Positions 2,648-61,773 of a stretch of 64,000 bases of DNA are shown here, in pieces (the first letter of the stretch is position 1; each line of letters opens with the position of its first letter). The DNA lies in the NCBI GenBank assembly GCA_937129145.1, contig CAKZMU010000009.1, positions 80,551-144,550 of the forward strand, in the 5' to 3' direction. Origin of the DNA: an uncultured Lacinutrix sp. Lineage in GTDB: Bacteria; Bacteroidota; Bacteroidia; Flavobacteriales; Flavobacteriaceae. The notes under the pieces are model-generated. The model ran no database searches and was not told where the DNA came from. It saw only the letters and a list, made by a program, of their open reading frames with translations. A program made the translations under genes and the position numbers.

Positions 2648-3463
2648 ATGAAATACGTATTTGCATTTTTACTAACACTATCATTTTCTGTTGTTTTTGC
2701 ACAAGAAAAAGATAAAGCATTGCAAAAGTCCAACGATTTTGTCTATCAAGGTAATAGTTTGATTGAAGACGATTTTATTTCAGCAGAAAAAGAATACAGA
2801 AAAGCCATTTCAAAAAAACCGAGTAACGCTGTAGGTGCTTACAATTTAGGAAACGCCTATTACGAAACCAAAAACTTTGACGAAGCTTTATTGCGCCACA
2901 TAGAAGCTGCTAATGTTGCTAAAACCAAAGAAGAAAAGCACAGAGCATTTCACAATATTGGCAACACCTTAATGGAGCAAAAAAAGTGTAAAGAAGCGGT
3001 TGAGGCTTATAAAAACGCTTTAAGAAATAACCCAAGTGATGAAGAGTCCCGATACAATCTCGTAGTTGCTAAAGAATGTGCTGAACAACAGCAACAAAAC
3101 GAAGACGAGAACAAGGATAAGGACAAAAAAGACGAAGAGAAAGAAGACGAGAAGAAAGAGGATGAAGAAAAGAAGGACGATGGCGAAAAAGAAGATGAAA
3201 ACAAAGACGAAGGCGACCAAGATAAAAAAGATGGTGACCAAAAAGAAGATGAAGAAGGAAAGCCTAAAGACGATGAAAATCAGAAAAAAGATAGCGACCC
3301 TAAAAACCAGAAAGAAAAGCCACAACAGCAACCTGGAAAATTATCGCCTCAGCAAGTTAAAAACTTGTTAGAAGCCATGAATAATGAAGAGAAAAAGGTG
3401 CAACAAAAAATAAATGCTAAAAAAGCCAAAGGAAAGAAAGTAAAAGCCGAAAAAGATTGGTAA
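2648..3463 (+). CDS. batC: TPR protein BatC with an acidic/lysine-rich low-complexity tail
   Basis: The signal peptide starts at the internal ATG at 2648 (MKYVFAFLLTLSF). TPR-like repeats are followed by about 90 aa of K/E/D-rich sequence. The ORF-track start at 2579 is probably too early. Confidence 0.75.
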   Translation: MKYVFAFLLTLSFSVVFAQEKDKALQKSNDFVYQGNSLIEDDFISAEKEYRKAISKKPSNAVGAYNLGNAYYETKNFDEALLRHIEAANVAKTKEEKHRAFHNIGNTLMEQKKCKEAVEAYKNALRNNPSDEESRYNLVVAKECAEQQQQNEDENKDKDKKDEEKEDEKKEDEEKKDDGEKEDENKDEGDQDKKDGDQKEDEEGKPKDDENQKKDSDPKNQKEKPQQQPGKLSPQQVKNLLEAMNNEEKKVQQKINAKKAKGKKVKAEKDW

Positions 3464-19994: not shown

Positions 19995-20068
19995 TGGAGA
20001 AGATGGGATTCGAACCCACGACCTCTTGACTGCCAGTCAAGCGCTCTAGCCAACTGAGCTACATCCCC
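19995..20068 (-). tRNA. tRNA-Ala (anticodon GGC)
   Basis: The reverse complement folds as a cloverleaf: acceptor GGGGATG with G3:U70, D arm GCTC/GAGC, anticodon loop CTGGCAG, and T arm GTGGG-TTCGAAT-CCCAT. Stems are GC-rich. There is one T:T mismatch in the acceptor stem. Confidence 0.85.
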
Positions 20069-29627: not shown

Positions 29628-29700
29628 GACAAGGTGGCTGAACGGTTAAGGCAACAGACTGCAAATCTGTTTTTTGTGAGTTCAAATCTCACCCTTGTCT
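29628..29700 (+). tRNA. tRNA-Cys (anticodon GCA)
   Basis: Acceptor GACAAGG/CCTTGTC, anticodon arm ACAGA-CTGCAAA-TCTGT, T arm GTGAG-TTCAAAT-CTCAC, and discriminator U as expected for Cys. Confidence 0.85.
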
Positions 29701-29706
29701 CAAAAT

Positions 29707-29779
29707 AGTATCGTAGCTCAATGGCTAGAGCGCTCGGTTGTCTCCCGAGAAGTTGCGGGTTCGAATCTCGTCGGTACTG
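29707..29779 (+). tRNA. tRNA-Asp (anticodon GTC)
   Basis: Acceptor AGTATCG/CGGTACT, D arm GCTC/GAGC, anticodon arm CTCGG-TTGTCTC-CCGAG, T arm GCGGG-TTCGAAT-CTCGT, and discriminator G. Confidence 0.85.
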
Positions 29780-29780
29780 C

Positions 29781-29844
29781 GAAGCAGTTTAAGAGATGAG
29801 AAGTTTACCCTGAGCGTAGTCGAAGGGAATCTTGTCGGTACTGC
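29781..29844 (+). repeat. conserved 46-nt tRNA-trailer element (copy A) plus an 18-nt duplicate of the tRNA-Asp 3' end
   Basis: 29781-29826 is GAAGCAGTTTAAGAGATGAGAAGTTTACCCTGAGCGTAGTCGAAGG. 29827-29844 (GAATCTTGTCGGTACTGC) repeats 29763-29780 with 1 mismatch. The core matches copy B at 30181-30226. Confidence 0.8.
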
Positions 29845-29848
29845 AAAT

Positions 29849-29931
29849 CTGGGAGGATAATCCCGAAGGTTCGGGAGTGGTTTACTCGCTTTGGAAGCGA
29901 GAGGTTGTAGGTTCAAATCCTACCTCTCAGA
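29849..29931 (+). tRNA. tRNA-Pro-like (anticodon TGG) with a hairpin insertion in the D-loop
   Basis: Acceptor CTGGGAG/CTCTCAG (C1:G72 and A73, as in bacterial tRNA-Pro), anticodon arm CTCGC-TTTGGAA-GCGAG, and T arm GTAGG-TTCAAAT-CCTAC. The D region is about 10 nt too long because of the hairpin TCCCGAAGGTTCGGGA (29861-29876). Confidence 0.6.
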
Positions 29932-29937
29932 CAAAAT

Positions 29938-30009
29938 ACTCCGTTAGTCAAATGGCTAAGACGCCTGACTTTCTATCAGGAATTAAGGGTTCAATTCCCT
30001 TACGGAGTA
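29938..30009 (+). tRNA. tRNA-Glu (anticodon TTC)
   Basis: Acceptor ACTCCGT/ACGGAGT, anticodon arm CCTGA-CTTTCTA-TCAGG, and T arm AAGGG-TTCAATT-CCCTT. Confidence 0.8.
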
Positions 30010-30014
30010 CACAT

Positions 30015-30100
30015 TGAGATATAGCTTAATTGGTAGAGCGTCGCTCTCATAAGGCGAATGGTTTAGGTTCTCCCGATAGTTATCGGGACTAATATCTCAA
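30015..30100 (+). tRNA. tRNA-Met/Ile2-like (anticodon CAT) with a hairpin insertion in the T-loop
   Basis: Acceptor TGAGATA/TATCTCA, D arm GCTT/GAGC, and anticodon arm TCGCT-CTCATAA-GGCGA. The T-stem is TTAG(G)/(A)CTAA, but the T-loop is TTC followed by the 18-nt hairpin TCCCGATAGTTATCGGGA (30071-30088). Confidence 0.55.
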
Positions 30101-30106
30101 CAACAC

Positions 30107-30179
30107 GCAGGAATGGCGAAACGGCAAACGCACTCGACTTAGAATCGAGAAACTGGGAGTTCGAATCTCTCTTCCTGTA
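30107..30179 (+). tRNA. tRNA-Leu-like (anticodon TAG) with a short (5-nt) variable loop
   Basis: Acceptor GCAGGAA/TTCCTGT, a class-II-like D arm (TGGCGAAACGGCAAACGC), anticodon arm CTCGA-CTTAGAA-TCGAG, variable region of only AAACT, and T arm GGGAG-TTCGAAT-CTCTC. Confidence 0.65.
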
Positions 30180-30180
30180 C

Positions 30181-30246
30181 GAAGTAAGGAAAGAGATGAG
30201 AAGTTTATGCTGAGCGAAGTCGAAGTGAATCTCTCTTCCTGTACGA
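30181..30246 (+). repeat. conserved 46-nt tRNA-trailer element (copy B) plus a 20-nt duplicate of the tRNA-Leu(TAG) 3' end
   Basis: 30181-30226 is GAAGTAAGGAAAGAGATGAGAAGTTTATGCTGAGCGAAGTCGAAGT. 30227-30246 (GAATCTCTCTTCCTGTACGA) exactly repeats 30163-30182. Confidence 0.8.
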
Positions 30247-30247
30247 T

Positions 30248-30321
30248 GCTCCACTAGCCCAAATGGAAGAGGCAACAGTTTTAAGCGCTGTTAAGTCCAA
30301 GTTCGAATCTTGGGTGGAGTA
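30248..30321 (+). tRNA. tRNA-Leu-like (anticodon TAA) with a short variable loop
   Basis: Acceptor GCTCCAC/GTGGAGT (G1:U72), anticodon arm ACAGT-TTTAAGC-GCTGT (alternatively AACAG/CTGTT with a 9-nt loop), variable TAAGT, and T arm CCAAG-TTCGAAT-CTTGG. Confidence 0.6.
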
Positions 30322-30327
30322 CAAAAT

Positions 30328-30451
30328 AAGCTTATGGTGTAATGGAAAGCACACAAGGTTTAGCTCATGCATATCTATTTCAAGAAATAGGTATTCGTGA
30401 ATGCAAAGCATTTCGAACCTTGGAGTATGGGTTCAAGTCCTATTAAGCTTA
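30328..30451 (+). tRNA. tRNA-like gene (probably Arg, anticodon TCG) with a 52-nt insertion in the anticodon loop
   Basis: Acceptor AAGCTTA/TAAGCTT, D arm GTGT/GCAC, anticodon stem CAAGG (30354-58) / CCTTG (30418-22) enclosing 59 nt, and T arm ATGGG-TTCAAGT-CCTAT. The last 7 loop nt, TTTCGAA, form a canonical loop. The insert at 30359-30410 contains the hairpin CTATTTC-AAG-GAAATAG. Confidence 0.55.
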
Positions 30452-30456
30452 CAAAA

Positions 30457-30527
30457 TAACCTGTGGTGTAACGGTAACACTCAAGATTTTGATTCTTGTA
30501 TTATAGGTTCGAATCCTATCAGGTTAT
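30457..30527 (+). tRNA. tRNA-Gln (anticodon TTG)
   Basis: Acceptor TAACCTG/CAGGTTA, D arm GTGT/ACAC, anticodon arm CAAGA-TTTTGAT-TCTTG, and T arm ATAGG-TTCGAAT-CCTAT. Confidence 0.8.
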
Positions 30528-30535
30528 CAAAAAAT

Positions 30536-30608
30536 GGAACAGTAGCAAAGTTGGTCAATGCGTCGGACTGAAAATCTGAAAATACAGGTTCAATTCCTGT
30601 CTGTTCCA
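30536..30608 (+). tRNA. tRNA-Phe (anticodon GAA)
   Basis: Acceptor GGAACAG/CTGTTCC, anticodon arm TCGGA-CTGAAAA-TCTGA, and T arm ACAGG-TTCAATT-CCTGT. Confidence 0.82.
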
Positions 30609-30768
30609 CTAAAATTAAAGATTCCTGCCTATGCAGGAAATAATATCAAGCTGGTCTTGTTGAGTGTTTCGGTATAGCACTATTGTATAAATCGTTGCAG
30701 AAATGCATCATGAGTTTATGTTCAACTAGACTTGAAGGTTTTGACTGTTAACCAAAAAATGGTCTCCC

Positions 30769-30803
30769 CCTATAGGTCGTGGGTTCGACTCCCACTTATC
30801 CCA
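30769..30803 (+). pseudogene. orphan tRNA 3' half (anticodon-stem 3' strand, variable loop, T arm, acceptor 3' strand)
   Basis: CCTAT-AGGTC-GTGGG-TTCGACT-CCCAC-TTATCCC-A. No matching 5' half lies upstream. The complementary 5' half lies 3 nt downstream. Confidence 0.6.
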
Positions 30804-30806
30804 ATT

Positions 30807-30873
30807 GGGATAGTAGTTCAGTGGTTAGAACAATAGGATGTAGGTGTTGCTGGTTCGATTCCAGTCGTTTGCT
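30807..30873 (+). pseudogene. tRNA 5' half (acceptor 5' strand, D arm, anticodon-stem 5' strand) fused to an unrelated T arm and acceptor 3' strand
   Basis: GGGATAG-TA-GTTC-AGTGGTTA-GAAC-A-ATAGG is followed by ATGTAGGTGTT, then GCTGG-TTCGATT-CCAGT-CGTTTGC. The acceptor strands within this unit do not pair. GGGATAG and ATAGG pair perfectly with the upstream fragment at 30769-30803. Confidence 0.55.
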
Positions 30874-30888
30874 TGGAGAAATTCCTTG

Positions 30889-30950
30889 GCAATAGTAGCT
30901 CAATTGGTAGAGCACTGCACTTTTAATGCAGGTTTGGACTCAAAATCCAC
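30889..30950 (+). pseudogene. tRNA-Lys-like (anticodon TTT) fragment lacking a matching acceptor 3' strand
   Basis: GCAATAG-TA-GCTC-AATTGGTA-GAGC-A-CTGCA-CTTTTAA-TGCAG is followed by a degenerate T arm (TGGA-CTCAAAA-TCCA). No CTATTGC-like 3' strand lies downstream. Confidence 0.5.
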
Positions 30951-31450
30951 AATCAAAAGCCCATCATCTTTTAAAACTGATGACCAACGCAGATTGTCAT
31001 TCTGCTCAACAAAAATGACAAAAATAGTAGATTGCAAGTCGGCTTTAGATTCCTGCATTACTGACGCATCGGTCAACACTGGTCGTGGGAATGACAAAAC
31101 TAGAGCAGTCTTGAAAGTGCCTTGAAATACTGATTTTTAATAGTAGAAGTGGTTACTGTTTTGTAATAAGAAATTATATAAATCTGATTATCGATTCATA
31201 TAGTTGTCACAATACTCAGCACTAATTACAGGCACTATTAATATGAGTATTTCCGCACCAGAAAAATGATTTGCTTTCTGCTATTTTTAACAATGAAGAG
31301 ATATAAAAATATACTTCAATTAATGATGAACTCGTCATTGTTTTTTGAAGTTGGTAAGCCTTCCGTTACAAGAATTGCCGCCACGCTCAAAAATGGGCAA
31401 CAATAAATGTTTAATCTTCCTGAAATAAATTCAGGATAAAAAAATTAGAA

Positions 31451-54923: not shown

Positions 54924-54950
54924 GATGTTTTGTTTTAAAACGTTTAATTA

Positions 54951-55295
54951 TTAAGCCGCTGTTATTAAAATGCGTTCTATACCAGCAAAGCAATTATTCA
55001 TTATAATCCTGTGTTCTTTTTTTGCTCTTACTAGAAGATTTTTTACTTCAAAAAGAAATGCTTGTAATTGATTTTTTGAGTAGTTTTTATCTTCTATTGC
55101 TTTGCATATTTTCTGAATGCCTTGATAATCATTATCAGCATTAAACTCGGTTTGCATTTTATTAATTTCAGTTTCACTAATATGAATAGAGGTGAAATCG
55201 ATATGATTCTTTTTTGTGAAATTTGAATGCATTAAAAATAAAAGCAGATACACTTTTAGTTCTTCTGTTGTCCATGTTGGTTTATGATTTTTCAT
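54951..55295 (-). CDS. hypothetical protein
   Basis: 114-aa ORF between the LRR gene and the decarboxylase gene. No recognisable motif. Confidence 0.45.
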   Translation of the reverse strand: MKNHKPTWTTEELKVYLLLFLMHSNFTKKNHIDFTSIHISETEINKMQTEFNADNDYQGIQKICKAIEDKNYSKNQLQAFLFEVKNLLVRAKKEHRIIMNNCFAGIERILITAA

Positions 55296-55315: not shown

Positions 55316-56170
55316 TTAATTACAGTTTTCGCCAAAAGCTGAGAAACCATCAATACCTGATGACCAGTTTGCATTACTATAAATAGCATCATCTACTTCA
55401 ATACAATAAAGGTTAGAATTAGACCTTGCTTCAAAATCGGTTAAGCTTCCATTGTTTCCATTCTTTACACTTAGGTTTGTTAGTTGATTATTAGAGACGT
55501 CTAAGTCTTCTAATAAACTGTTTTGGCTTAAATCTAATTCTGTAAGTTGATTATGAGCTACTTTAAACCAATACAAATTCGCACTATTCGTAACATCTAT
55601 ACTGGTTAAAAGGTTATTAGAAGTACCTAATCTTACAAGATTTATATTATTTGCTACATCTAAATCTGTTAATTGGTTATTATCGCAGATTAATACCTCT
55701 AAATTTATGTTGCTTCTAACGTCAATACTCGTTAGACTATTTATATAAGCACTAACAGTTTTCAATTCTAAATTGTTACTTAAATCTAAACTTGTAAGCT
55801 GATTGTCTTCTGTATTTAAATTACTTAACTTTAGATTATCGCTTACATCTAAATTGGTTAAACTATTACCATAACATTCTAACACTTCAAGGTTTGTAAA
55901 TGCATCTATACCTTGTAAACTACTAATGTTTTTCTCTGAAACATCTAACTGAATTACAGCTTCGGCATCTGTGATTAAAATGGTTCCGTTTAAGCCATTG
56001 GTATCTATCCCTAAATCGATTAGGGCTTGTTCAAAATTTGAGTCTGGAATGTTGACTTCCGTTCTTTCTGTTTTTTCTACATCATCATCGTTTTTACTGC
56101 ATGATGAGAACATTGTTAGAGCCATTAATAGGCTTAAAATTGTACGATTTGTTGTATTAAGTGATTTCAT
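55316..56170 (-). CDS. leucine-rich repeat lipoprotein (single LRR module)
   Basis: Lipobox (MFSSC), an IPDSNFEQALIDLGID head, about 22-aa LRRs (LT.LD.S.N..L) and a CIEVDD..YSNANW...F.ENC cap. The module is the same as in the neighbouring 1133-aa ORF. Confidence 0.8.
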   Translation of the reverse strand: MKSLNTTNRTILSLLMALTMFSSCSKNDDDVEKTERTEVNIPDSNFEQALIDLGIDTNGLNGTILITDAEAVIQLDVSEKNISSLQGIDAFTNLEVLECYGNSLTNLDVSDNLKLSNLNTEDNQLTSLDLSNNLELKTVSAYINSLTSIDVRSNINLEVLICDNNQLTDLDVANNINLVRLGTSNNLLTSIDVTNSANLYWFKVAHNQLTELDLSQNSLLEDLDVSNNQLTNLSVKNGNNGSLTDFEARSNSNLYCIEVDDAIYSNANWSSGIDGFSAFGENCN

Positions 56171-56255: not shown

Positions 56256-59200
56256 TTAGTTTACGACCAGTTTCTTTACTGTTTCGCCTAAATTATTTTT
56301 GATATTTACTAAATATATTCCCGAAGGGATTTGACTAACATTAACAGATTGATTGTTGTTAATTGTTGTTGCCAAAATGCTCCTTCCGTTGAAATCATAG
56401 ATTTTTATTTGCGAATCTTCTTGAAGCCCTTTTACATAAAATACCTCTGATGATGGGTTTGGATATAGACTTACAGTATCAAATATGGATTCTTCATTTA
56501 CTCCTAATGATTCACAATTTTCATCAAAACTTGTTTGCGCATCTATATAACTACTCCAAAGTGCGGTACTGTAAGGTGCGTTATCTACTTGAATACAATA
56601 CAGATTGGGATTATTATCTGCTTCAAAATCAGTAATGATAGTGTTATTGCCATTTTTAACATTAAAACTTGTTAGTTGGTTATTGGCAGCATATATTTCA
56701 ATTAGCACTGTATGATTATTTAAATCCATACTTGTTATTTGATTACTTGCAAAACTTAATTCCTCTAAATCAAGATTGTTACTAATATCTAATGTTGTTA
56801 GTTGATTTTCATACAACTCCAGATATGTTAAATCTGGATTATTACTTACATTTATATTTGTAAGTTGACATGTAGAACATGTTAATGATTCTAATAAAAT
56901 GTTGTTAGATACATCTAAACTACCAATTGCATTTCCGCCTGCGTGCAATTCTTTTAATGCTATATTATTTGATATATTTAAACTTGTTAAATCATTATTA
57001 TTACATATTAATATTTCCAAATCTTCAAGACTATTAATGCCTTCCAGATCTTCAATATCATTATTTCCAATTCGTAATTCTATTAAATTTATAAAGCCTT
57101 CTATTCCTGTTGCATTTGAAATATTTTCATTACCTACATCTAGACTTATTACTGCTTCTGCTTCCGACTGAAGAATATTTCCTGTTAAACCATTATTATC
57201 ATATCCTAAATCGATTAAGGCTTGTTCAAAATTTACATCTGGAATAGCAATAGTTGGAAACGGAACGCTACAGTCTTCGCTAAAATTTGTTTGTGGGTCT
57301 ATAAAGGCACTCCAATTTGCATTACTATAGGCAACATCATCTACTTCAATACAGTATAGACTTGGGTTGTTTGTTGCATAGACTCCATCTATATTAACAT
57401 TATTTCCATTTTTTACATTAAGGTTGGTAAGTTGATTATTAGTTATTGATAATTCAAACAATTGAAGATTATTACTAGCATCCATATTTGTAATTTGGTT
57501 ATAACCAATAAGTATTGAAGATAATGCTGTATTGTTTTCAATATTTAAAACTGTTAGTTGATTATTATCTGCTAGCAACTCGTACATGACCATATTGTTC
57601 CCAAGCAATAGTGTTGTTAATTGATTATGACTGCAATCCAATTGTGCAAGCGCTAAATTATTACTTACATCTAAGCTCGTAAGATTATTGTTTTCACATT
57701 GTAGGGCGCTTAAATTTGTAAAGCCTTCAATTCCTAAAAGACTAGAAATATTTTTATTGTTAACATTAAGATTTGTTACCGCTTCGGCTTCACTTTGTAA
57801 AATATCACCTGTAAATCCATTAGTGTCTATACCTAAATCTATGAGTGCTGTTTCAAAATTATCATCTGGAATAGCAATGGTTGGCGCAGATGCATTACAA
57901 TCTTCACTAAAACTAGTTTGTGCATCAATATTCGTCCAATTCGTATTACTATACGCAACATTATCTACATCAATACAAGTTAAATTAGAATTATTTGTTG
58001 TGCTTATACTCGTAAGCATCGTGTTGTTTCCATTTTTTAAGTTTAAACTTGTTAAATTATTATTAGCACAACTAAAAACTGCTAATGCAGGATTATTACT
58101 CAAATCTAAACTTGCTAATTGGTTTCCCCAAACCCTAAAATCTTCTAACAATATGTTATTGCTAACATCTATACTTAAAATTTCTCCATCAGAACAACGT
58201 AATTCTTTTAAATTAATATTCGTATTTACGTTTAAACTGGTGAATAAATTGCTATAACATTGAAGGTATTCTAATGCAGTTGCATTGCTAACATTCAAAT
58301 TAGTAATATCGTTACTATAGCAATACAATGTTTGTAATAAAGAAAGGTTACTTACATCTAAACTTGTGAGTTCATTAGAATGTACATACATAGTTTCTAA
58401 TACAGTATTGTTGCTTACATTTAGATTAGTTAACTGATTAAAAGGCACACTCAAATAAGTTAATAGTGTATTACTACTTATATCTAAACTCGTTAATTGA
58501 CTATTTATGGCTATTAAATATGTTAAGGATGTATTATTGCTAATATCTATACTTGACAGGTTATTGTTACTACAATCTAACGTTTGCAAAGCAGTATTAC
58601 TGCTTAAATTTAAACTCGTCAAATTGTTGTTACTACAAACAATACTAGTAACATTAACAAAACCTTCTATACCTTGTAGAGAATTGATGCCTTTATTATT
58701 TAGTGCTAACGTGTTTACAGCCTCGGCATCAGATTGTAAAATAAGACCATTTATTGTTCCATCACTGTCTTGACCAGCGTCTATAAGTGCTTGTTCAAAA
58801 TTAGAATCTGGAATAGCGACTGTTTGTGCAGTTGTTGCTGCTATAGAAAACATAGTAAATAACATCCAAAACATAGTTTTGCTTTTCAACTTATTCACAC
58901 GTTTTAAATACTCTTTTTTTGTATTGCTTTTTTTAGGAAATGGAACATACATAGGTGTATTTTCTACATAATGCTTATAAAGGTTTCCAAATTCTTTTCG
59001 TAAATCTTTTTCTTCAAAAAAGGTTCCTATAATGAAATATGCCGATAAGAAAATGGCAAAAACAAGATGAGTTCCTGTCATAACTGGTGTAGCCCAAAGT
59101 CCCAACATGCCTCCAAAATAAATTGGATGTCTCATGTACTTATAAAACCCAACCACTTCAAAATTTAATGGTTTATAAGGTTTTTTCATGATCTCGAAAT

Positions 59201-59657
59201 ACACTTGTCTCAAACCAAAGAAATCTAAGTGGTTAATTAAAAATGTACTGATAAATAGAATAGACCATCCAATAAAAAAAAGAGCATACATAAAGTAATT
59301 TAGAGTAATATTAGAAGACACGTCCCATAATAAACCGCCTAATGGTTGCCATTGTATAACCAAAAAGAATAGCAATAAACCAGAGACTAAAATAAAAGTG
59401 CTGCGTTCTATAGCTCTTGGAAAATAGCTAGAGAAAAAATCTTTGAACCATGGTCTTGCCATGATGCTGTGCTGCACTCCAAAAAGAGCAACTAAAACTA
59501 AGTTGTTAAGTAGTGCTAATAAGAATGGCACTCTTGGTTCTTGGTCGATAGATATTTCAGGTATTAAATGACTTACTGATAATATCCAGTATACGATAGA
59601 GGCAAAGCCAACTAAATAGGCCGCGATTGAATAGATTAACATTGTAAAACTTTTCAT
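56256..59657 (-). CDS. in-frame fusion ORF: ICMT/MddA-like membrane methyltransferase (aa 1-245), then an internal signal peptide, three LRR modules and a T9SS C-terminal sorting domain
   Basis: The N-terminal domain is polytopic and has the RHPIYFGG...EEKDL motif of the isoprenylcysteine/phospholipid methyltransferase family. There is an internal ATG at 58874 (MFWMLFTMFSIAATTAQT). LRR modules cover aa 281-588, 592-797 and 801-1048. The C-terminus is SLYPNPSSEVFYV...GIYLVNI. Confidence 0.75.
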   Translation of the reverse strand: MKSFTMLIYSIAAYLVGFASIVYWILSVSHLIPEISIDQEPRVPFLLALLNNLVLVALFGVQHSIMARPWFKDFFSSYFPRAIERSTFILVSGLLLFFLVIQWQPLGGLLWDVSSNITLNYFMYALFFIGWSILFISTFLINHLDFFGLRQVYFEIMKKPYKPLNFEVVGFYKYMRHPIYFGGMLGLWATPVMTGTHLVFAIFLSAYFIIGTFFEEKDLRKEFGNLYKHYVENTPMYVPFPKKSNTKKEYLKRVNKLKSKTMFWMLFTMFSIAATTAQTVAIPDSNFEQALIDAGQDSDGTINGLILQSDAEAVNTLALNNKGINSLQGIEGFVNVTSIVCSNNNLTSLNLSSNTALQTLDCSNNNLSSIDISNNTSLTYLIAINSQLTSLDISSNTLLTYLSVPFNQLTNLNVSNNTVLETMYVHSNELTSLDVSNLSLLQTLYCYSNDITNLNVSNATALEYLQCYSNLFTSLNVNTNINLKELRCSDGEILSIDVSNNILLEDFRVWGNQLASLDLSNNPALAVFSCANNNLTSLNLKNGNNTMLTSISTTNNSNLTCIDVDNVAYSNTNWTNIDAQTSFSEDCNASAPTIAIPDDNFETALIDLGIDTNGFTGDILQSEAEAVTNLNVNNKNISSLLGIEGFTNLSALQCENNNLTSLDVSNNLALAQLDCSHNQLTTLLLGNNMVMYELLADNNQLTVLNIENNTALSSILIGYNQITNMDASNNLQLFELSITNNQLTNLNVKNGNNVNIDGVYATNNPSLYCIEVDDVAYSNANWSAFIDPQTNFSEDCSVPFPTIAIPDVNFEQALIDLGYDNNGLTGNILQSEAEAVISLDVGNENISNATGIEGFINLIELRIGNNDIEDLEGINSLEDLEILICNNNDLTSLNISNNIALKELHAGGNAIGSLDVSNNILLESLTCSTCQLTNINVSNNPDLTYLELYENQLTTLDISNNLDLEELSFASNQITSMDLNNHTVLIEIYAANNQLTSFNVKNGNNTIITDFEADNNPNLYCIQVDNAPYSTALWSSYIDAQTSFDENCESLGVNEESIFDTVSLYPNPSSEVFYVKGLQEDSQIKIYDFNGRSILATTINNNQSVNVSQIPSGIYLVNIKNNLGETVKKLVVN

Positions 59658-59826
59658 GATTATTTATTTTTAAGTTCGAGACAAACATATTCACGAAAAG
59701 AGTGGATAGCACAAAATTTAATGGATACAAATGGGTGACAAGCGCCTAATTTACGGATGACAAATGGGTGACGAAAAGAAAAATAAATTTATTAACTAAT
59801 TAGTAATCAGTATTTTAATAAATTAA

Positions 59827-61596
59827 TTAAAATGTTTTTAAAAAAGCGTCTAAATCTTCTTCAGGTGACAGATTAAGTTTTTTTCTGAGCCTGTTTCGGC
59901 TCTTTTTTACGGAAGAAGGGTTGATATTTTGAAGTGCTGCTATCTGTTTTGTATCTAAATCTAGTTTGATTAATGAACATAATCTTATTTCCGTTTTGGT
60001 TAAACCTTCAAATTGAGTGGTTAACTTATCATAGAACGAACTGCTTAACGCATCTATTTTGGTATAAAAGTCATCTGCACTTTTATCAACCCAAATTTTG
60101 TTTTTTATTTCGGTATCTAATTCCTCTAACTCTTTGGCGCGTTTTCTGCCTGTTGAGGTTTTTAGATTCTCCATACGTTCTGCTAAAGACAAAGCCCATT
60201 CTTGGTTATTAGATATATTAACAGCAAAATTGGTAAGGTCTTTTTTCTTATATTCTATTTCTGAGTTTAATAATTTATTCTGTAAGTCTTTATATTTCAC
60301 ACGTTGTTTATATCGATAGTATAGTAAACTCATTAAGAAAATAGCAGCTAGACTTCCAAAAATTATCCATTGGCTTTTTGCTCTGTTTTTTGTGTTAAGT
60401 AATGAAATCTCTGATTCTTGAGTTTTAAGTTTTTCCTCTGCAATACGCGCTTCTTTAGCTTTAACAATACTGTCTAATCGCATGGTTTTAGCAAATTCCA
60501 TTTGCTGCAACTGCTTACCAACTTCATCTTTTTTTAAGCTATCATTTAAAGTGGCCATTTCTTCATGATATTCTAAAGCTTTAACTTTATTACCTAAAGC
60601 TTTGTATCCACGATATAGACAATCACAAGCGTTTTTCTTTTGTATTAGACTATTTAATTCGAATGCAATTTTGTAACTTCTTGTACAAGTTTCAATACTT
60701 TTTGAATATGCTTTTTGCTCGAGATAAAGTTCACCTAAGTCGATAACAGTTTCGGATATTAATGGTAGACTCCCTATTTTTTCACGAAGCGCTAAGCTTC
60801 TATTGTAATAATTTAATGCCTCCTTAAGACTTCCTTTTTTTTGATAAACATCACCAATATAACCTAGTGATATTGCTTTATTTCTTGCCAATTTAAGTTC
60901 GCTTGTTCGCTTTAAACTTCTATTAAAATAGTCAAGAGCCAAATTATAATCTGCTTGTTTTAAGTAGGACTTCCCTATATTATTGAGAGTTAATGAATTA
61001 TTCTTATCAATTTCCAAACAACGTTGAAAATAGGTTATTGCTTTCTCACTATTACCTTGATCATAATATAAATCACCAATGGTATTTAAAGTAAAAAATG
61101 TTCTGTTGTTATCTCCTAGTTCTTCACGGATTTTCAGGCTTTTTTGTAAGTAATTTAAAGCTTTTATACCATTGCCTATATCACTATAAACGATTCCAAA
61201 TTTATTGTAAGTTGCTGCTATACCTTCTTTATCTCCTAGTTCTTTTTCAATAACAAGTTCTTTTTCAAAATGTCTAAGCGATTCTATATAATTTCCCTTA
61301 ACCCAATTTGCTGTCCCTAAAGCTTTGTGTGCATGAGCAATGTGCTTTTTAGACTTGATATTTGTCGCATAATCGTATTCTATTTTTCCATAGTATATTG
61401 TACTGTCTGGTTCGGTAAATACTATATTCCAAGAGTACTCTCCTAAGGCATTTAACCTTAAACTATCTTGCTTAGTTATATCGTTCCAAACGGATAAAAG
61501 AGAATCCATCTCTATGTCAAAATCAGTTTTATTTTCTTGACCAAAAGAAGAATAGCTAATCAAAAGAAGAAAAAAAAGTATGGCTCGTTTAAACAT
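59827..61596 (-). CDS. TPR-repeat, single-TM, LuxR-type HTH transcriptional regulator
   Basis: Signal peptide, multiple TPR repeats, a TM helix (WIIFGSLAAIFLMSLLYY) and a C-terminal HTH (TEIRLCSLIKLDLDTKQIAALQNINPSSVKKSRNRLRKKL). Confidence 0.8.
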   Translation of the reverse strand: MFKRAILFFLLLISYSSFGQENKTDFDIEMDSLLSVWNDITKQDSLRLNALGEYSWNIVFTEPDSTIYYGKIEYDYATNIKSKKHIAHAHKALGTANWVKGNYIESLRHFEKELVIEKELGDKEGIAATYNKFGIVYSDIGNGIKALNYLQKSLKIREELGDNNRTFFTLNTIGDLYYDQGNSEKAITYFQRCLEIDKNNSLTLNNIGKSYLKQADYNLALDYFNRSLKRTSELKLARNKAISLGYIGDVYQKKGSLKEALNYYNRSLALREKIGSLPLISETVIDLGELYLEQKAYSKSIETCTRSYKIAFELNSLIQKKNACDCLYRGYKALGNKVKALEYHEEMATLNDSLKKDEVGKQLQQMEFAKTMRLDSIVKAKEARIAEEKLKTQESEISLLNTKNRAKSQWIIFGSLAAIFLMSLLYYRYKQRVKYKDLQNKLLNSEIEYKKKDLTNFAVNISNNQEWALSLAERMENLKTSTGRKRAKELEELDTEIKNKIWVDKSADDFYTKIDALSSSFYDKLTTQFEGLTKTEIRLCSLIKLDLDTKQIAALQNINPSSVKKSRNRLRKKLNLSPEEDLDAFLKTF

Positions 61597-61698: not shown

Positions 61699-61712
61699 GT
61701 GGTCCCACTTGG
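61699..61712. repeat. 14-bp repeat (tRNA-proximal copy) overlapping the tRNA(CAT) 3' end
   Basis: GTGGTCCCACTTGG is identical to 51936-51949. Confidence 0.6.
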
Positions 61713-61773
61713 GCTCGAACCAAGGACCCTCTGATTATGAGTCAGATGCTCTAACCAACTGAGCTATGGGACC
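61700..61773 (-). tRNA. tRNA with anticodon CAT (elongator Met or Ile2/lysidine type)
   Basis: The reverse complement reads GGTCCCA-TA-GCTC-AGTTGGTTA-GAGC-A-TCTGA-CTCATAA-TCAGA-GGGTC-CTTGG-TTCGAGC-CCAAG-TGGGACC-A. The cloverleaf is GC-rich and canonical, and is followed on the minus strand by a terminator hairpin. Confidence 0.88.

What the first reader, a model, noticed from the sequence alone, without database searches (positions are those of the whole stretch)
56256..59657. In-frame fusion of an ICMT/MddA-like membrane methyltransferase to a secreted LRR-T9SS protein that keeps its own signal peptide
One uninterrupted 1133-codon ORF encodes two very different parts. The first is a polytopic methyltransferase-family domain of about 245 aa, ending in RHPIYFGG ... 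EEKDLRKEFG ... TPMYVPF. Next comes a lysine-rich linker and what looks like a complete N-terminal signal peptide (MFWMLFTMFSIAATTAQT, ATG at 58874). Three LRR modules and a T9SS C-terminal sorting domain follow. These parts have incompatible topogenic logic, since one is an integral inner-membrane enzyme and the other is exported cargo. The locus may therefore be two genes that lost the intervening stop, with the second translated from the internal ATG. Alternatively it is a genuine tethered fusion.
Basis: partly seen in the sequence, partly recalled or inferred. Interest (0 to 1): 0.5.

Follow-up and report, generated by a model that had tools for sequence, protein, structure and literature searches.

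The report
Membrane methyltransferase fused to secreted LRR protein
One real gene in a marine-type flavobacterium joins an inner-membrane methyltransferase to a secreted leucine-rich-repeat protein; a diverged relative keeps the same join, and the retained signal peptide probably lets the cell cut the product into two working proteins.

Summary
The 1133-codon ORF (56256..59657, minus strand) is real. It has an MddA/ICMT-like six-helix methyltransferase (aa 1-240), a Lys-rich tail, a signal-peptide-like segment (aa 257-277), three LRR modules and a type A T9SS sorting domain.

It is not an artefact. Three assemblies are 100% identical, the tail is in frame with tails of standalone relatives, and syntenic genes flank the block.

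A second lineage (L061, 79% nucleotide identity, dS above 1) has the same fusion with an identical junction peptide, YLKR(V/I)NKLKSKT. Both halves show dN/dS of 0.05-0.09.

The window's internal start codons (ATG 58874, TTG 58889, GTG 58898) are all replaced in L061, so conserved internal initiation is unlikely.

The positive-inside rule (24 vs 1 Lys/Arg) and the ICMT fold put the methyltransferase C-terminus in the cytoplasm, so the next hydrophobic segment crosses in-to-out like a normal signal peptide. A conserved TA|QT site (Bacteroidetes Q-rule) follows it.

Best model (inferred, untested): a polyprotein cut by signal peptidase I, releasing T9SS cargo. Other members of this methyltransferase family carry analogous C-terminal fusions to exported domains. 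Moderately interesting.

The parts
59723..59772 (-). Two direct repeats, GTCACCCATTTGT(C)ATCC, upstream of the fused gene. They are a candidate operator.
   Evidence: The repeats are conserved in all five lineages aligned: window, L061, L053, L052 and L001. Function is inferred only.
59682..59715 (-). Candidate Bacteroidetes-type promoter: TTTG at 59715-59712 and TATGTTTG at 59689-59682, about 25 nt before the ATG.
   Evidence: Both elements are conserved in five lineages. The motif is not enriched in the window overall (109 found vs 107.5 expected), so this is weak evidence.
58938..59657 (-). MddA/ICMT-like polytopic methyltransferase core, aa 1-240, with six predicted TM helices.
58875..58937 (-). 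Lys-rich cytoplasmic tail, aa 241-261. It is the native methyltransferase C-tail, and its last residues (KLKSKT) also serve as the n-region of the signal peptide.
   Evidence: The tail is homologous in frame to the tails of P0002, P0005 and L061. Residues 250-261 show 4.5 synonymous vs 1.5 non-synonymous differences against L061.
58827..58889 (-). Internal signal peptide, aa 257-277: n-region KSKT, h-region MFWMLFTMFSIAA, c-region TTA. The predicted signal peptidase I / Q-rule site is A277|Q278.
   Evidence: It matches the leaders of standalone homologues, e.g. P0130 MKSKLFFCFVLLLVVKTTIAQT. An [AGSC]Q site is present in 65 of 67 homologues. TAQT is conserved in L061. The Q-rule is described in PMC5837995.
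57897..58826 (-). LRR module 1, aa 278-587, with the IPDSNFEQALID N-cap and the KNGNN...FSEDC C-cap.
   Evidence: Shown. dN/dS vs L061 is 0.087.
57270..57896 (-). LRR module 2, aa 588-796.
56514..57269 (-). LRR module 3, aa 797-1048.
56256..56468 (-). T9SS type A C-terminal sorting domain, aa 1064-1133, plus the stop codon.
   Evidence: PF18962 scores 55.3 bits (cutoff 27) and TIGR04183 scores 52 bits (cutoff 23).
55316..56170 (-). Neighbouring single-module LRR protein, 284 aa, with a lipoprotein-like leader. It belongs to the block absent from the closest unfused relative.
   Evidence: It is 41-49% identical to the three modules. The block is absent in L053, L054 and L055.
54951..55295 (-). 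114-aa ORF of unknown family, the last gene of the block.
   Evidence: Shown. The same three-gene order is seen in L051 and L056.
59827..61596 (-). TPR plus LuxR/GerE-type regulator directly upstream. It is syntenic with the methyltransferase in all relatives.

Best explanation
This is a genuine fused gene that has been maintained in evolution.

Origin: an MddA/ICMT-like inner-membrane methyltransferase gene became joined in frame to the adjacent gene for an LRR protein secreted by the type IX system. The join lies at the last codons of the methyltransferase tail and the first codon of the LRR gene's signal peptide. An in-frame deletion of the stop and spacer is the most likely cause.

Proposed mechanism:
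1. The whole 1133-aa chain is translated from the methyltransferase start and inserted co-translationally into the inner membrane.
2. After six TM helices, the Lys-rich tail stays in the cytoplasm.
3. The former signal peptide (aa 257-277) inserts N-in/C-out as a seventh span and starts Sec translocation of the LRR part.
4. Signal peptidase I cuts at A277|Q278.
5. The LRR protein is freed into the periplasm and exported through the T9SS via its C-terminal sorting domain. The methyltransferase stays in the membrane with one extra helix.

What is shown: ORF continuity, conservation of the fusion and junction in a second lineage, purifying selection on both halves, non-conservation of the window's internal starts, intact signal-peptide and cleavage-site features, and the predicted cytoplasmic C-terminus.

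What is inferred: membrane insertion order, cleavage, T9SS export and enzyme activity.
For: The ORF and its domains are established.

It is not an artefact:
- MEGAHIT and SPAdes contigs are 100% identical to the window sequence, and the exact protein is also on record in NCBI on a contig of 580,170 nt.
- The tail is in frame with standalone relatives.
- Syntenic genes flank the block on both sides.

The fusion is conserved:
- P0246/L061 is colinear across the junction, with 72% aa identity over 891 columns and 78.6% nucleotide identity.
- The junction peptide YLKR(V/I)NKLKSKT is identical except V/I, and the codon differences are synonymous.
- dN/dS vs L061 is 0.052 for the methyltransferase core (dS 1.12) and 0.087 for LRR module 1.
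- All 63 invariant methyltransferase residues are kept in both fused proteins.

The window's internal starts are not conserved: window GTG254, TTG257 and ATG262 correspond to ATA, TTA and ACT in L061. The only shared in-frame start between 241 and 285 is ATG269, inside the h-region.

Topology fits:
- K+R counts are 24 on the predicted cytoplasmic side and 1 on the periplasmic side.
- MddA is a membrane enzyme with 4-6 helices (PMC11445057).

Signal-peptide features are intact:
- The leader resembles MKSK...AQT leaders of standalone homologues.
- TA|QT is conserved and fits the Bacteroidetes Q-rule (PMC5837995).
- The T9SS sorting domain is intact.

There are analogous fusions of the same methyltransferase family to other exported domains. 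P0021/P0064 share an in-frame junction with synonymous differences and a G|Q site. P0087 has an A|Q site. P0089 has a lipobox-like ITLC followed by a RidA-like domain.
Against: - No experimental data exist. Cleavage, export and enzyme activity are all inferred.
- The second lineage rests on one 3.6-kb contig at 2x coverage. It contains at least one probable homopolymer indel and ends before the sorting domain.
- Only two lineages with this fusion were found. The closest other relative (L053, 88.5% aa in the core) is unfused and lacks the LRR block.
- The h-region is only moderately hydrophobic (about 1.48 on the Kyte-Doolittle scale over 15 aa; my hand calculation, and one search shows no 15-aa window there reaching the 1.5 threshold).
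- Each lineage does have some in-frame start codon at 262-266, so minor internal initiation cannot be excluded.
- The search for homologous proteins appears to return only proteins up to about 1.75 times the query length. Its lack of fused hits is therefore uninformative. The exhaustive search lists only the top 150.
Confidence: 0.6

Rival explanations
1. Two proteins come from one ORF by internal initiation. The LRR/T9SS protein is made mainly from an internal start (TTG257 or ATG262 in the window), and the full-length fusion is a minor or degraded by-product.
For: TTG257 sits exactly where standalone homologues have Met, as in M-K-S-K. Two homologues, P0154 and P0156, are called with non-ATG starts. 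Both TTG257 and ATG262 have A at -3 and -6, which favours initiation in Flavobacterium (PMC6847099). Each lineage has some in-frame start at 262-266.
Against: TTG257, GTG254 and ATG262 are all replaced by non-start codons in L061, while the encoded KLKSKT is kept through synonymous changes. Starts at 262-266 give leaders with no K/R n-region, which is seen in only 1 of 67 homologues. With no stop codon, every ribosome translating the strongly conserved methyltransferase must continue into the LRR part. No TAnnTTTG promoter motif lies inside the methyltransferase ORF, though that is weak evidence.
Confidence: 0.15
2. It is a permanently tethered fusion. The hydrophobic segment acts as an uncleaved seventh TM helix, and the LRR domains stay anchored in the periplasm on the methyltransferase. 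The T9SS domain is unused.
For: AF2 models aa 247-277 as one continuous helix. Internal cleavage has not been demonstrated.
Against: The c-region and Q site (TAQT) are fully conserved between lineages, whereas the signal h/c segment as a whole (aa 262-277) is only 50% identical. The type A sorting domain is intact and scores well above its cutoff, which makes sense only if the cargo is released. Analogous fusions in the family also keep [AG]|Q or lipobox sites.
Confidence: 0.12
3. It is a neutral accident on its way to decay. A lineage-specific stop loss left one half non-functional.
For: Only two lineages carry the fusion. The standalone form is the norm for both families. The L061 ORF is broken at aa 869.
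Against: dN/dS is 0.05 for the methyltransferase and 0.09 for the LRR part over dS greater than 1. There are no stops in 1133 codons, and all invariant residues are kept. In L061 the frame downstream of the break stays open to the contig end, which points to a read error.
Confidence: 0.06
4. It is an assembly or sequencing artefact: a chimeric join, or an indel in one of the two A7 runs.
For: Two A7 homopolymers lie just upstream of the junction. All window-lineage contigs may derive from one population.
Against: MEGAHIT and SPAdes contigs are identical to the window sequence, and the exact protein is also on record on a 580-kb NCBI contig. The frame on both sides of the A7 runs matches homologues. 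The block returns to synteny at the decarboxylase gene. An independent diverged contig has the same join.
Confidence: 0.03

Closest known systems
Bradyrhizobium japonicum FbcH, a cytochrome b-c1 polyprotein (Thony-Meyer et al. 1991; cited from memory, not found in the paper library)
   Same: A polytopic inner-membrane protein is fused in one ORF to an exported protein. An internal signal sequence is cut by signal peptidase to give two proteins.
   Different: The FbcH halves are subunits of one complex, and the cleavage was shown experimentally. Here the halves have no known functional link, the cargo goes on to the T9SS, and cleavage is only inferred.
Flavivirus-type polyproteins processed by host signal peptidase (e.g. 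PMC6756788)
   Same: A multi-pass membrane polyprotein carries internal signal sequences, and their lumenal ends are cut by signal peptidase.
   Different: Those use the eukaryotic ER and the Sec61/SPC machinery and are viral. They are an analogy of mechanism only.
MddA methanethiol/H2S S-methyltransferase (NCBIfam NF045656; PMC11445057, PMC5607357)
   Same: The alignment to the model is full length (2-239 of 238 positions, E 2.5e-69). It is a membrane protein with about six helices and the ICMT-like catalytic C-terminal motifs.
   Different: The score of 233 bits is below the equivalog cutoff of 270, and activity is untested. Known MddA proteins are standalone proteins of about 260 aa.
Standalone flavobacterial LRR proteins with a T9SS type A sorting domain (e.g. 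P0130, P0125, Psychroserpens P0123)
   Same: They share the module architecture (IPDxNFEQALID cap, KNGNN, FSEDC), the leader type (MKSK...AQT) and the sorting domain. P0130 is 60% identical.
   Different: Those proteins start at the signal peptide. Here the signal peptide is internal, preceded by 256 aa of membrane enzyme.

Membership tests
ICMT/PEMT-like integral membrane methyltransferase superfamily | A sequence match to the family model above its curated cutoff. | tested here: met
   PF04191 scores 27.5 bits against a cutoff of 25. The family profile hits 4a2n at E 3e-5 and 8xku_G at E 4.7e-6.
ICMT/PEMT-like integral membrane methyltransferase superfamily | The characteristic helical membrane fold with a C-terminal cofactor-binding subdomain. 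| tested here: met
MddA (methanethiol S-methyltransferase), NCBIfam equivalog NF045656 | A score at or above the curated equivalog cutoff. | tested here: not met
   The score is 233.2 bits against a cutoff of 270, although the alignment is full length. It should be called MddA-like, not MddA.
MddA (methanethiol S-methyltransferase) | SAM-dependent methylation of MeSH or H2S to DMS. | not testable with these tools
   This needs an enzyme assay or heterologous expression.
T9SS cargo with type A C-terminal sorting domain | A C-terminal domain matching TIGR04183 / PF18962 above cutoff. | tested here: met
   TIGR04183 scores 52 bits (cutoff 23) and PF18962 scores 55.3 bits (cutoff 27), at aa 1064-1132.
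T9SS cargo with type A C-terminal sorting domain | An N-terminal Sec signal peptide that delivers the cargo to the periplasm. | tested here: inconclusive
   The n, h and c regions and the A|Q site are present and homologous to leaders of standalone cargo. However, they are internal, at aa 257-277, not N-terminal. No signal-peptide predictor was available.
T9SS cargo with type A C-terminal sorting domain | T9SS-dependent secretion with removal of the sorting domain. | not testable with these tools
   This needs secretome analysis or T9SS mutants.
Leucine-rich repeat proteins | LRR repeats above the Pfam cutoff. | tested here: met
   LRR_4 scores 40.9 bits against a cutoff of 27. There are three modules 40-52% identical to one another.
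Signal-peptidase-processed bacterial polyprotein (FbcH type) | One ORF with a polytopic membrane part whose C-terminus is cytoplasmic, followed by an internal signal sequence and an exported part. | tested here: met
   Established at the sequence and prediction level.
Signal-peptidase-processed bacterial polyprotein (FbcH type) | Demonstrated cleavage into two mature proteins. | not testable with these tools
   The only evidence is indirect: the TA|QT site is conserved between lineages.

The most novel reading that the evidence does not exclude
The MddA-like methyltransferase family may serve repeatedly as an N-terminal 'carrier' for exported proteins. Its cytoplasmic Lys-rich tail doubles as a signal-peptide n-region. 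Loss of the stop codon therefore creates viable polyproteins that signal peptidase I or II resolves. In this lineage a T9SS adhesin-like protein has become obligatorily co-translated and co-regulated with the enzyme. That would make it a natural bacterial signal-peptidase-processed polyprotein class, and the first involving T9SS cargo.
Probability: 0.25. Interest if true: 0.6.

Novelty: new variant of a known kind. Interest (0 to 1): 0.42.

Why it matters
If the model holds, this is a natural bacterial polyprotein. A polytopic inner-membrane enzyme and a type IX secretion substrate are made as one chain and separated by signal peptidase at an internal signal peptide.

Such cases are very rare in bacteria. 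The cytochrome b-c1 FbcH protein is the textbook example. None is known for T9SS cargo or for Bacteroidota.

It would offer a ready-made system to study three questions:
- how internal signal peptides are recognised after a multi-pass domain;
- how the Q-rule site works out of its usual context;
- whether co-translational targeting by an upstream membrane protein can feed the T9SS.

It also matters for annotation. Gene callers report one 1133-aa protein whose domain mix looks contradictory. Similar fusions in the same methyltransferase family suggest the pattern recurs.

If the model is wrong, the locus is still a clean example of a stop-loss gene fusion that has survived more than one synonymous substitution per site.

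Tried and rejected
1. Frameshift or indel artefact at the two A7 runs. Rejected: the tail is in frame with P0002, P0005 and L061 on both sides of the runs. Both alternative frames hit stops quickly.

2. Assembly chimera. Rejected by identical MEGAHIT and SPAdes contigs, the NCBI record of the exact protein, and flanking synteny.

3. My own interim conclusion that this was a single-strain accident. It rested, which showed only standalone homologues. I overturned it for two reasons. That tool appears to return only proteins up to about 1.75 times the query length (maxima of 433, 606 and 352 aa). The exhaustive HMMER search then found P0246. A local hmmsearch showed P0246 is the only one of the top 150 representatives that carries the methyltransferase domain.

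4. Two JGI metagenome scans with junction alignments found nothing.

5. An internal promoter. No TAnnTTTG lies inside the methyltransferase ORF, and sigma-70-type hits are at chance level. The motif is not enriched in the window, so this is uninformative.

7. The FbcH paper could not be retrieved, so it is cited from memory.

8. An 8-bp direct repeat, TTTAAAAC, lies near both edges of the LRR block (58908-58901 and 54939-54932), with TTTAAAAAC once in L053. I considered it as a deletion or insertion footprint. It is too short in a 30% GC genome to evaluate.

9. I first dismissed the P0021, P0064 and P0087 fusions as long-read errors. I then partly reinstated them, because L058 and L059 share an in-frame junction with synonymous differences and no homopolymer.
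Full report
**Observation**

The window holds one uninterrupted ORF on the minus strand, 59657 to 56256, of 1133 codons.

- Pfam finds PEMT at aa 141-225 (27.5 bits, cutoff 25), LRR_4, and Por_Secre_tail at 1064-1132.
- NCBIfam aligns aa 2-239 to the whole MddA model (233 bits, below the 270 cutoff). It also finds the T9SS type A sorting domain at 52 bits against a cutoff of 23.
- The LRR part has three modules, aa 279-587, 588-796 and 797-1048. Each has an IPDxNFExALID cap, a KNGNN motif and an F(S/D)E(D/N)C end.

**Not an artefact**

- The exact protein is on record in several assemblies. These are a MEGAHIT contig (ERZ928167), a SPAdes contig (ERZ650160, where the start is called at M6), and an NCBI contig of 580 kb.
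- The two metagenome contigs are 100% identical to the window over 9.9 and 7.5 kb.
- The Lys-rich 'linker' aligns in frame with the C-terminal tails of standalone relatives. The window has KKSNTKKEYLKRVNKLKSKT. P0002 has KKKRAKENYLKGMNKLNQRAN-stop, and P0005 has KGSKTKDTYVKRTNKKIKQVQ-stop. The two A7 runs therefore hide no frameshift.
- Between the methyltransferase tail and the signal peptide there is simply no room for a stop.
- The region returns to synteny on both sides. The TPR/LuxR regulator lies upstream. The pyridoxal-dependent decarboxylase lies downstream, and it directly follows the methyltransferase in the closest unfused relative (L053-L055).

**What the two halves are**

The N-terminal half:

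- It belongs to a large family of methyltransferases of about 245 aa, annotated as ICMT-family or MddA-like.
- A family profile hits the catalytic C-terminal region of Ma-ICMT (4a2n, E 3e-5) and AtTam46.
- An AF2 model (pLDDT 84) has six TM helices.

The C-terminal half:

- It belongs to a very large family of flavobacterial LRR proteins with T9SS sorting domains.
- Its standalone members begin with leaders such as MKSKLFFCFVLLLVVKTTIAQT|IAIPDSNFEQALID (P0130, 60% identical).
- Of 67 such homologues with a 20-28-aa leader, 66 have K/R in residues 2-6, and 65 have an [AGSC]Q site just before the N-cap.

The window's KSKT-MFWMLFTMFSIAA-TTA|QT is the same kind of leader. Its n-region lies upstream of ATG262. 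Codon 257, a TTG, sits where homologues have Met.

**The turning point**

My first searches showed only standalone homologues, and I was heading for 'single-strain accident'. That tool, however, appears to return only proteins up to about 1.75 times the query length.

The exhaustive HMMER search of 1.84 billion representatives, using a query spanning the junction, returned P0246. It aligned over the whole query, 1-381 to 95-475. P0246 comes from a different metagenome (L061).

- It is colinear with the window protein, at 72% identity over 891 columns and 78.6% at the DNA level.
- Its junction reads ...YLKRINKLKSKTTVLTLFTMLSISVATAQTISIPDANFEQALIDAGQDSDG. This is the same fusion, with no stop.
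- Of the top 150 representatives it is the only one with the methyltransferase domain.

**Selection and start codons**

dN/dS between the window and L061:

| Region | dN/dS | Note |
|---|---|---|
| Methyltransferase core | 0.052 | dS 1.12 |
| LRR module 1 | 0.087 | |
| Junction, aa 250-261 | about 0.03 | 4.5 synonymous vs 1.5 non-synonymous differences |
| Signal h/c region | 0.28 | usual for signal peptides |

All 63 family-invariant methyltransferase residues are kept in both fused proteins.

The window's candidate internal starts are not conserved:

| Codon | Window | L061 |
|---|---|---|
| 254 | GTG | ATA |
| 257 | TTG | TTA |
| 262 | ATG | ACT |

The only shared in-frame start between codons 241 and 285 is ATG269, in the middle of the h-region. 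The KLKSKT n-region can therefore be translated in both lineages only as part of the fused ORF.

The L061 ORF stops at aa 869 because of one extra T in a T-run. The shifted frame then stays open and homologous to the contig end. This is most likely a read error on a 2x contig.

**Topology**

They are not.

- Loop charges follow the positive-inside rule sharply, with 24 K+R on the predicted cytoplasmic side against 1 on the other. The tail alone contributes 13.
- The homology to ICMT-type enzymes runs to the very C-terminus. Established knowledge of ICMT structures places their cofactor site and C-terminus on the cytoplasmic side.
- MddA itself is a membrane enzyme with 4-6 helices (PMC11445057).

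A hydrophobic segment that follows a cytoplasmic, positively charged tail will insert N-in/C-out. That is exactly the orientation of a normal signal peptide, and it places the TA|Q site at the periplasmic face. Bacteroidetes signal peptidase I substrates typically expose Gln at +1, the Q-rule (PMC5837995). TAQT is conserved in both lineages, while the signal h/c segment as a whole (aa 262-277) is only 50% identical.

**Mechanism proposed**

1. Transcription starts from a conserved TTTG/TAnnTTTG promoter, preceded by two conserved direct repeats.
2. One 1133-aa chain is translated.
3. The six-helix enzyme inserts co-translationally.
4. The former signal peptide inserts as a seventh span and starts Sec translocation.
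5. Signal peptidase I cleaves at A277|Q278.
6. The LRR protein is exported by the T9SS through its intact sorting domain.

The cleavage and export steps are inferred. The retained cleavage site and sorting domain are the indirect evidence.

**Origin**

- The three closest methyltransferase lineages are nearly equidistant. Core aa identity is 90% for window-L061, 88.5% for window-P0001 and 87% for L061-P0001.
- L053 (P0001) has the methyltransferase followed after 26 nt by the decarboxylase.
- In the window a block of about 4 kb lies between them. It holds the LRR-T9SS part, a 284-aa LRR protein and a 114-aa ORF.
- Homology to the methyltransferase tail runs to about codon 257, and homology to LRR leaders begins at codon 257-258.
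- An in-frame deletion removing the end of the tail, the stop, the spacer and the ATG is the simplest origin.
- Whether L053 lost the block or the fused lineages gained it is unresolved.

**Related fusions**

Other family members carry C-terminal extensions built the same way:

- P0021 and P0064 have ...FTK(F/L)KTIKSRSTF..., then G|QT and an unknown domain. Their junctions differ by synonymous changes, and there is no start codon.
- P0087 has ...SIMKNAMLIILSICAVNISHA|Q and the same unknown domain.
- P0089 has ...FFKKIKSYFLLLLFPITLC|QGQ and a RidA-like domain. It comes from a JGI contig.

Some of these come from contigs at 1.3-3.5x coverage, so they are leads, not findings. They do suggest that this family tolerates, or favours, such fusions.

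**Comparison and verdict**

- Each half is an ordinary member of a known family.
- The methyltransferase is MddA-like but below the equivalog cutoff, so I do not file it as MddA.
- The architecture works like the Bradyrhizobium FbcH cytochrome b-c1 polyprotein (from memory) and like signal-peptidase-processed viral polyproteins (PMC6756788).
- I found no described case that joins a membrane enzyme to T9SS cargo.
- I rate it a new variant of a known kind, of moderate interest. The main caveats are that only two lineages carry it, one of them on a thin contig, and that nothing has been tested experimentally.

Noticed in passing
window 29628-30955 (+): There is a dense tRNA array, with 10 Rfam tRNA hits in about 1.3 kb, three of them just above the gathering score. 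Single tRNAs also lie at 19995-20068 (-) and 61700-61773 (-).
   Followed up: no
window 59723-59772 (-): Two direct repeats, GTCACCCATTTGT(C)ATCC, lie upstream of the methyltransferase gene. They are conserved in five lineages together with a TTTG/TAnnTTTG promoter. They may be the operator of the adjacent TPR-LuxR regulator.
   Followed up: partly
window ~60101-60112 (inside the regulator gene 59827-61596); L056 1-175: Two independent metagenome contigs break or diverge here. The first 175 nt of L056 encode a different N-terminal part, joined to the same C-terminal regulator module. This suggests the module is repeated among several regulators in the genome.
   Followed up: partly
L058 4001-5302, L059 3001-3984, L060 2292-3320, L062 1830-3056: Other members of the same methyltransferase family run in frame into different exported domains through signal-peptide-like segments. 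These carry G|Q or A|Q sites or a lipobox-like site. The partners are an unknown domain (P0021, P0064, P0087) and a RidA-like domain (P0089).
   Followed up: partly
L001 6796-10613; L052 6940-10256: In two relatives the methyltransferase is followed by a UbiE/Methyltransf_11-type methyltransferase, a redoxin, a DsrE-like protein and a class V aminotransferase. This is a sulfur-flavoured neighbourhood, and the soluble DMS-forming enzyme MddH is UbiE-family (PMC11445057).
   Followed up: no
window 58901-58908 and 54932-54939 (-); L053 ~1210-1218: The 8-bp direct repeat TTTAAAAC lies near both edges of the ~4-kb LRR block, and the unfused relative has TTTAAAAAC once. It could be a deletion or insertion footprint, or chance in AT-rich DNA.
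   Followed up: partly
L061 ~3160-3185: One extra T in a T-run (GATGTTTACTAAT) breaks the orthologous ORF at aa 869. The shifted frame stays open and 70% identical to window module 3 up to the contig end. This is probably a read error on a 2x contig.
   Followed up: yes
window 54951-55295 (-): This 114-aa ORF, the last gene of the LRR block, matches no family apart from a sub-threshold DSPc hit.
   Followed up: no
tool behaviour: the search for homologous proteins returned no hit longer than about 1.4-1.75 times the query length (433, 606 and 352 aa). Long fused relatives were therefore invisible to it. The exhaustive representative search was needed to see P0246.
   Followed up: yes
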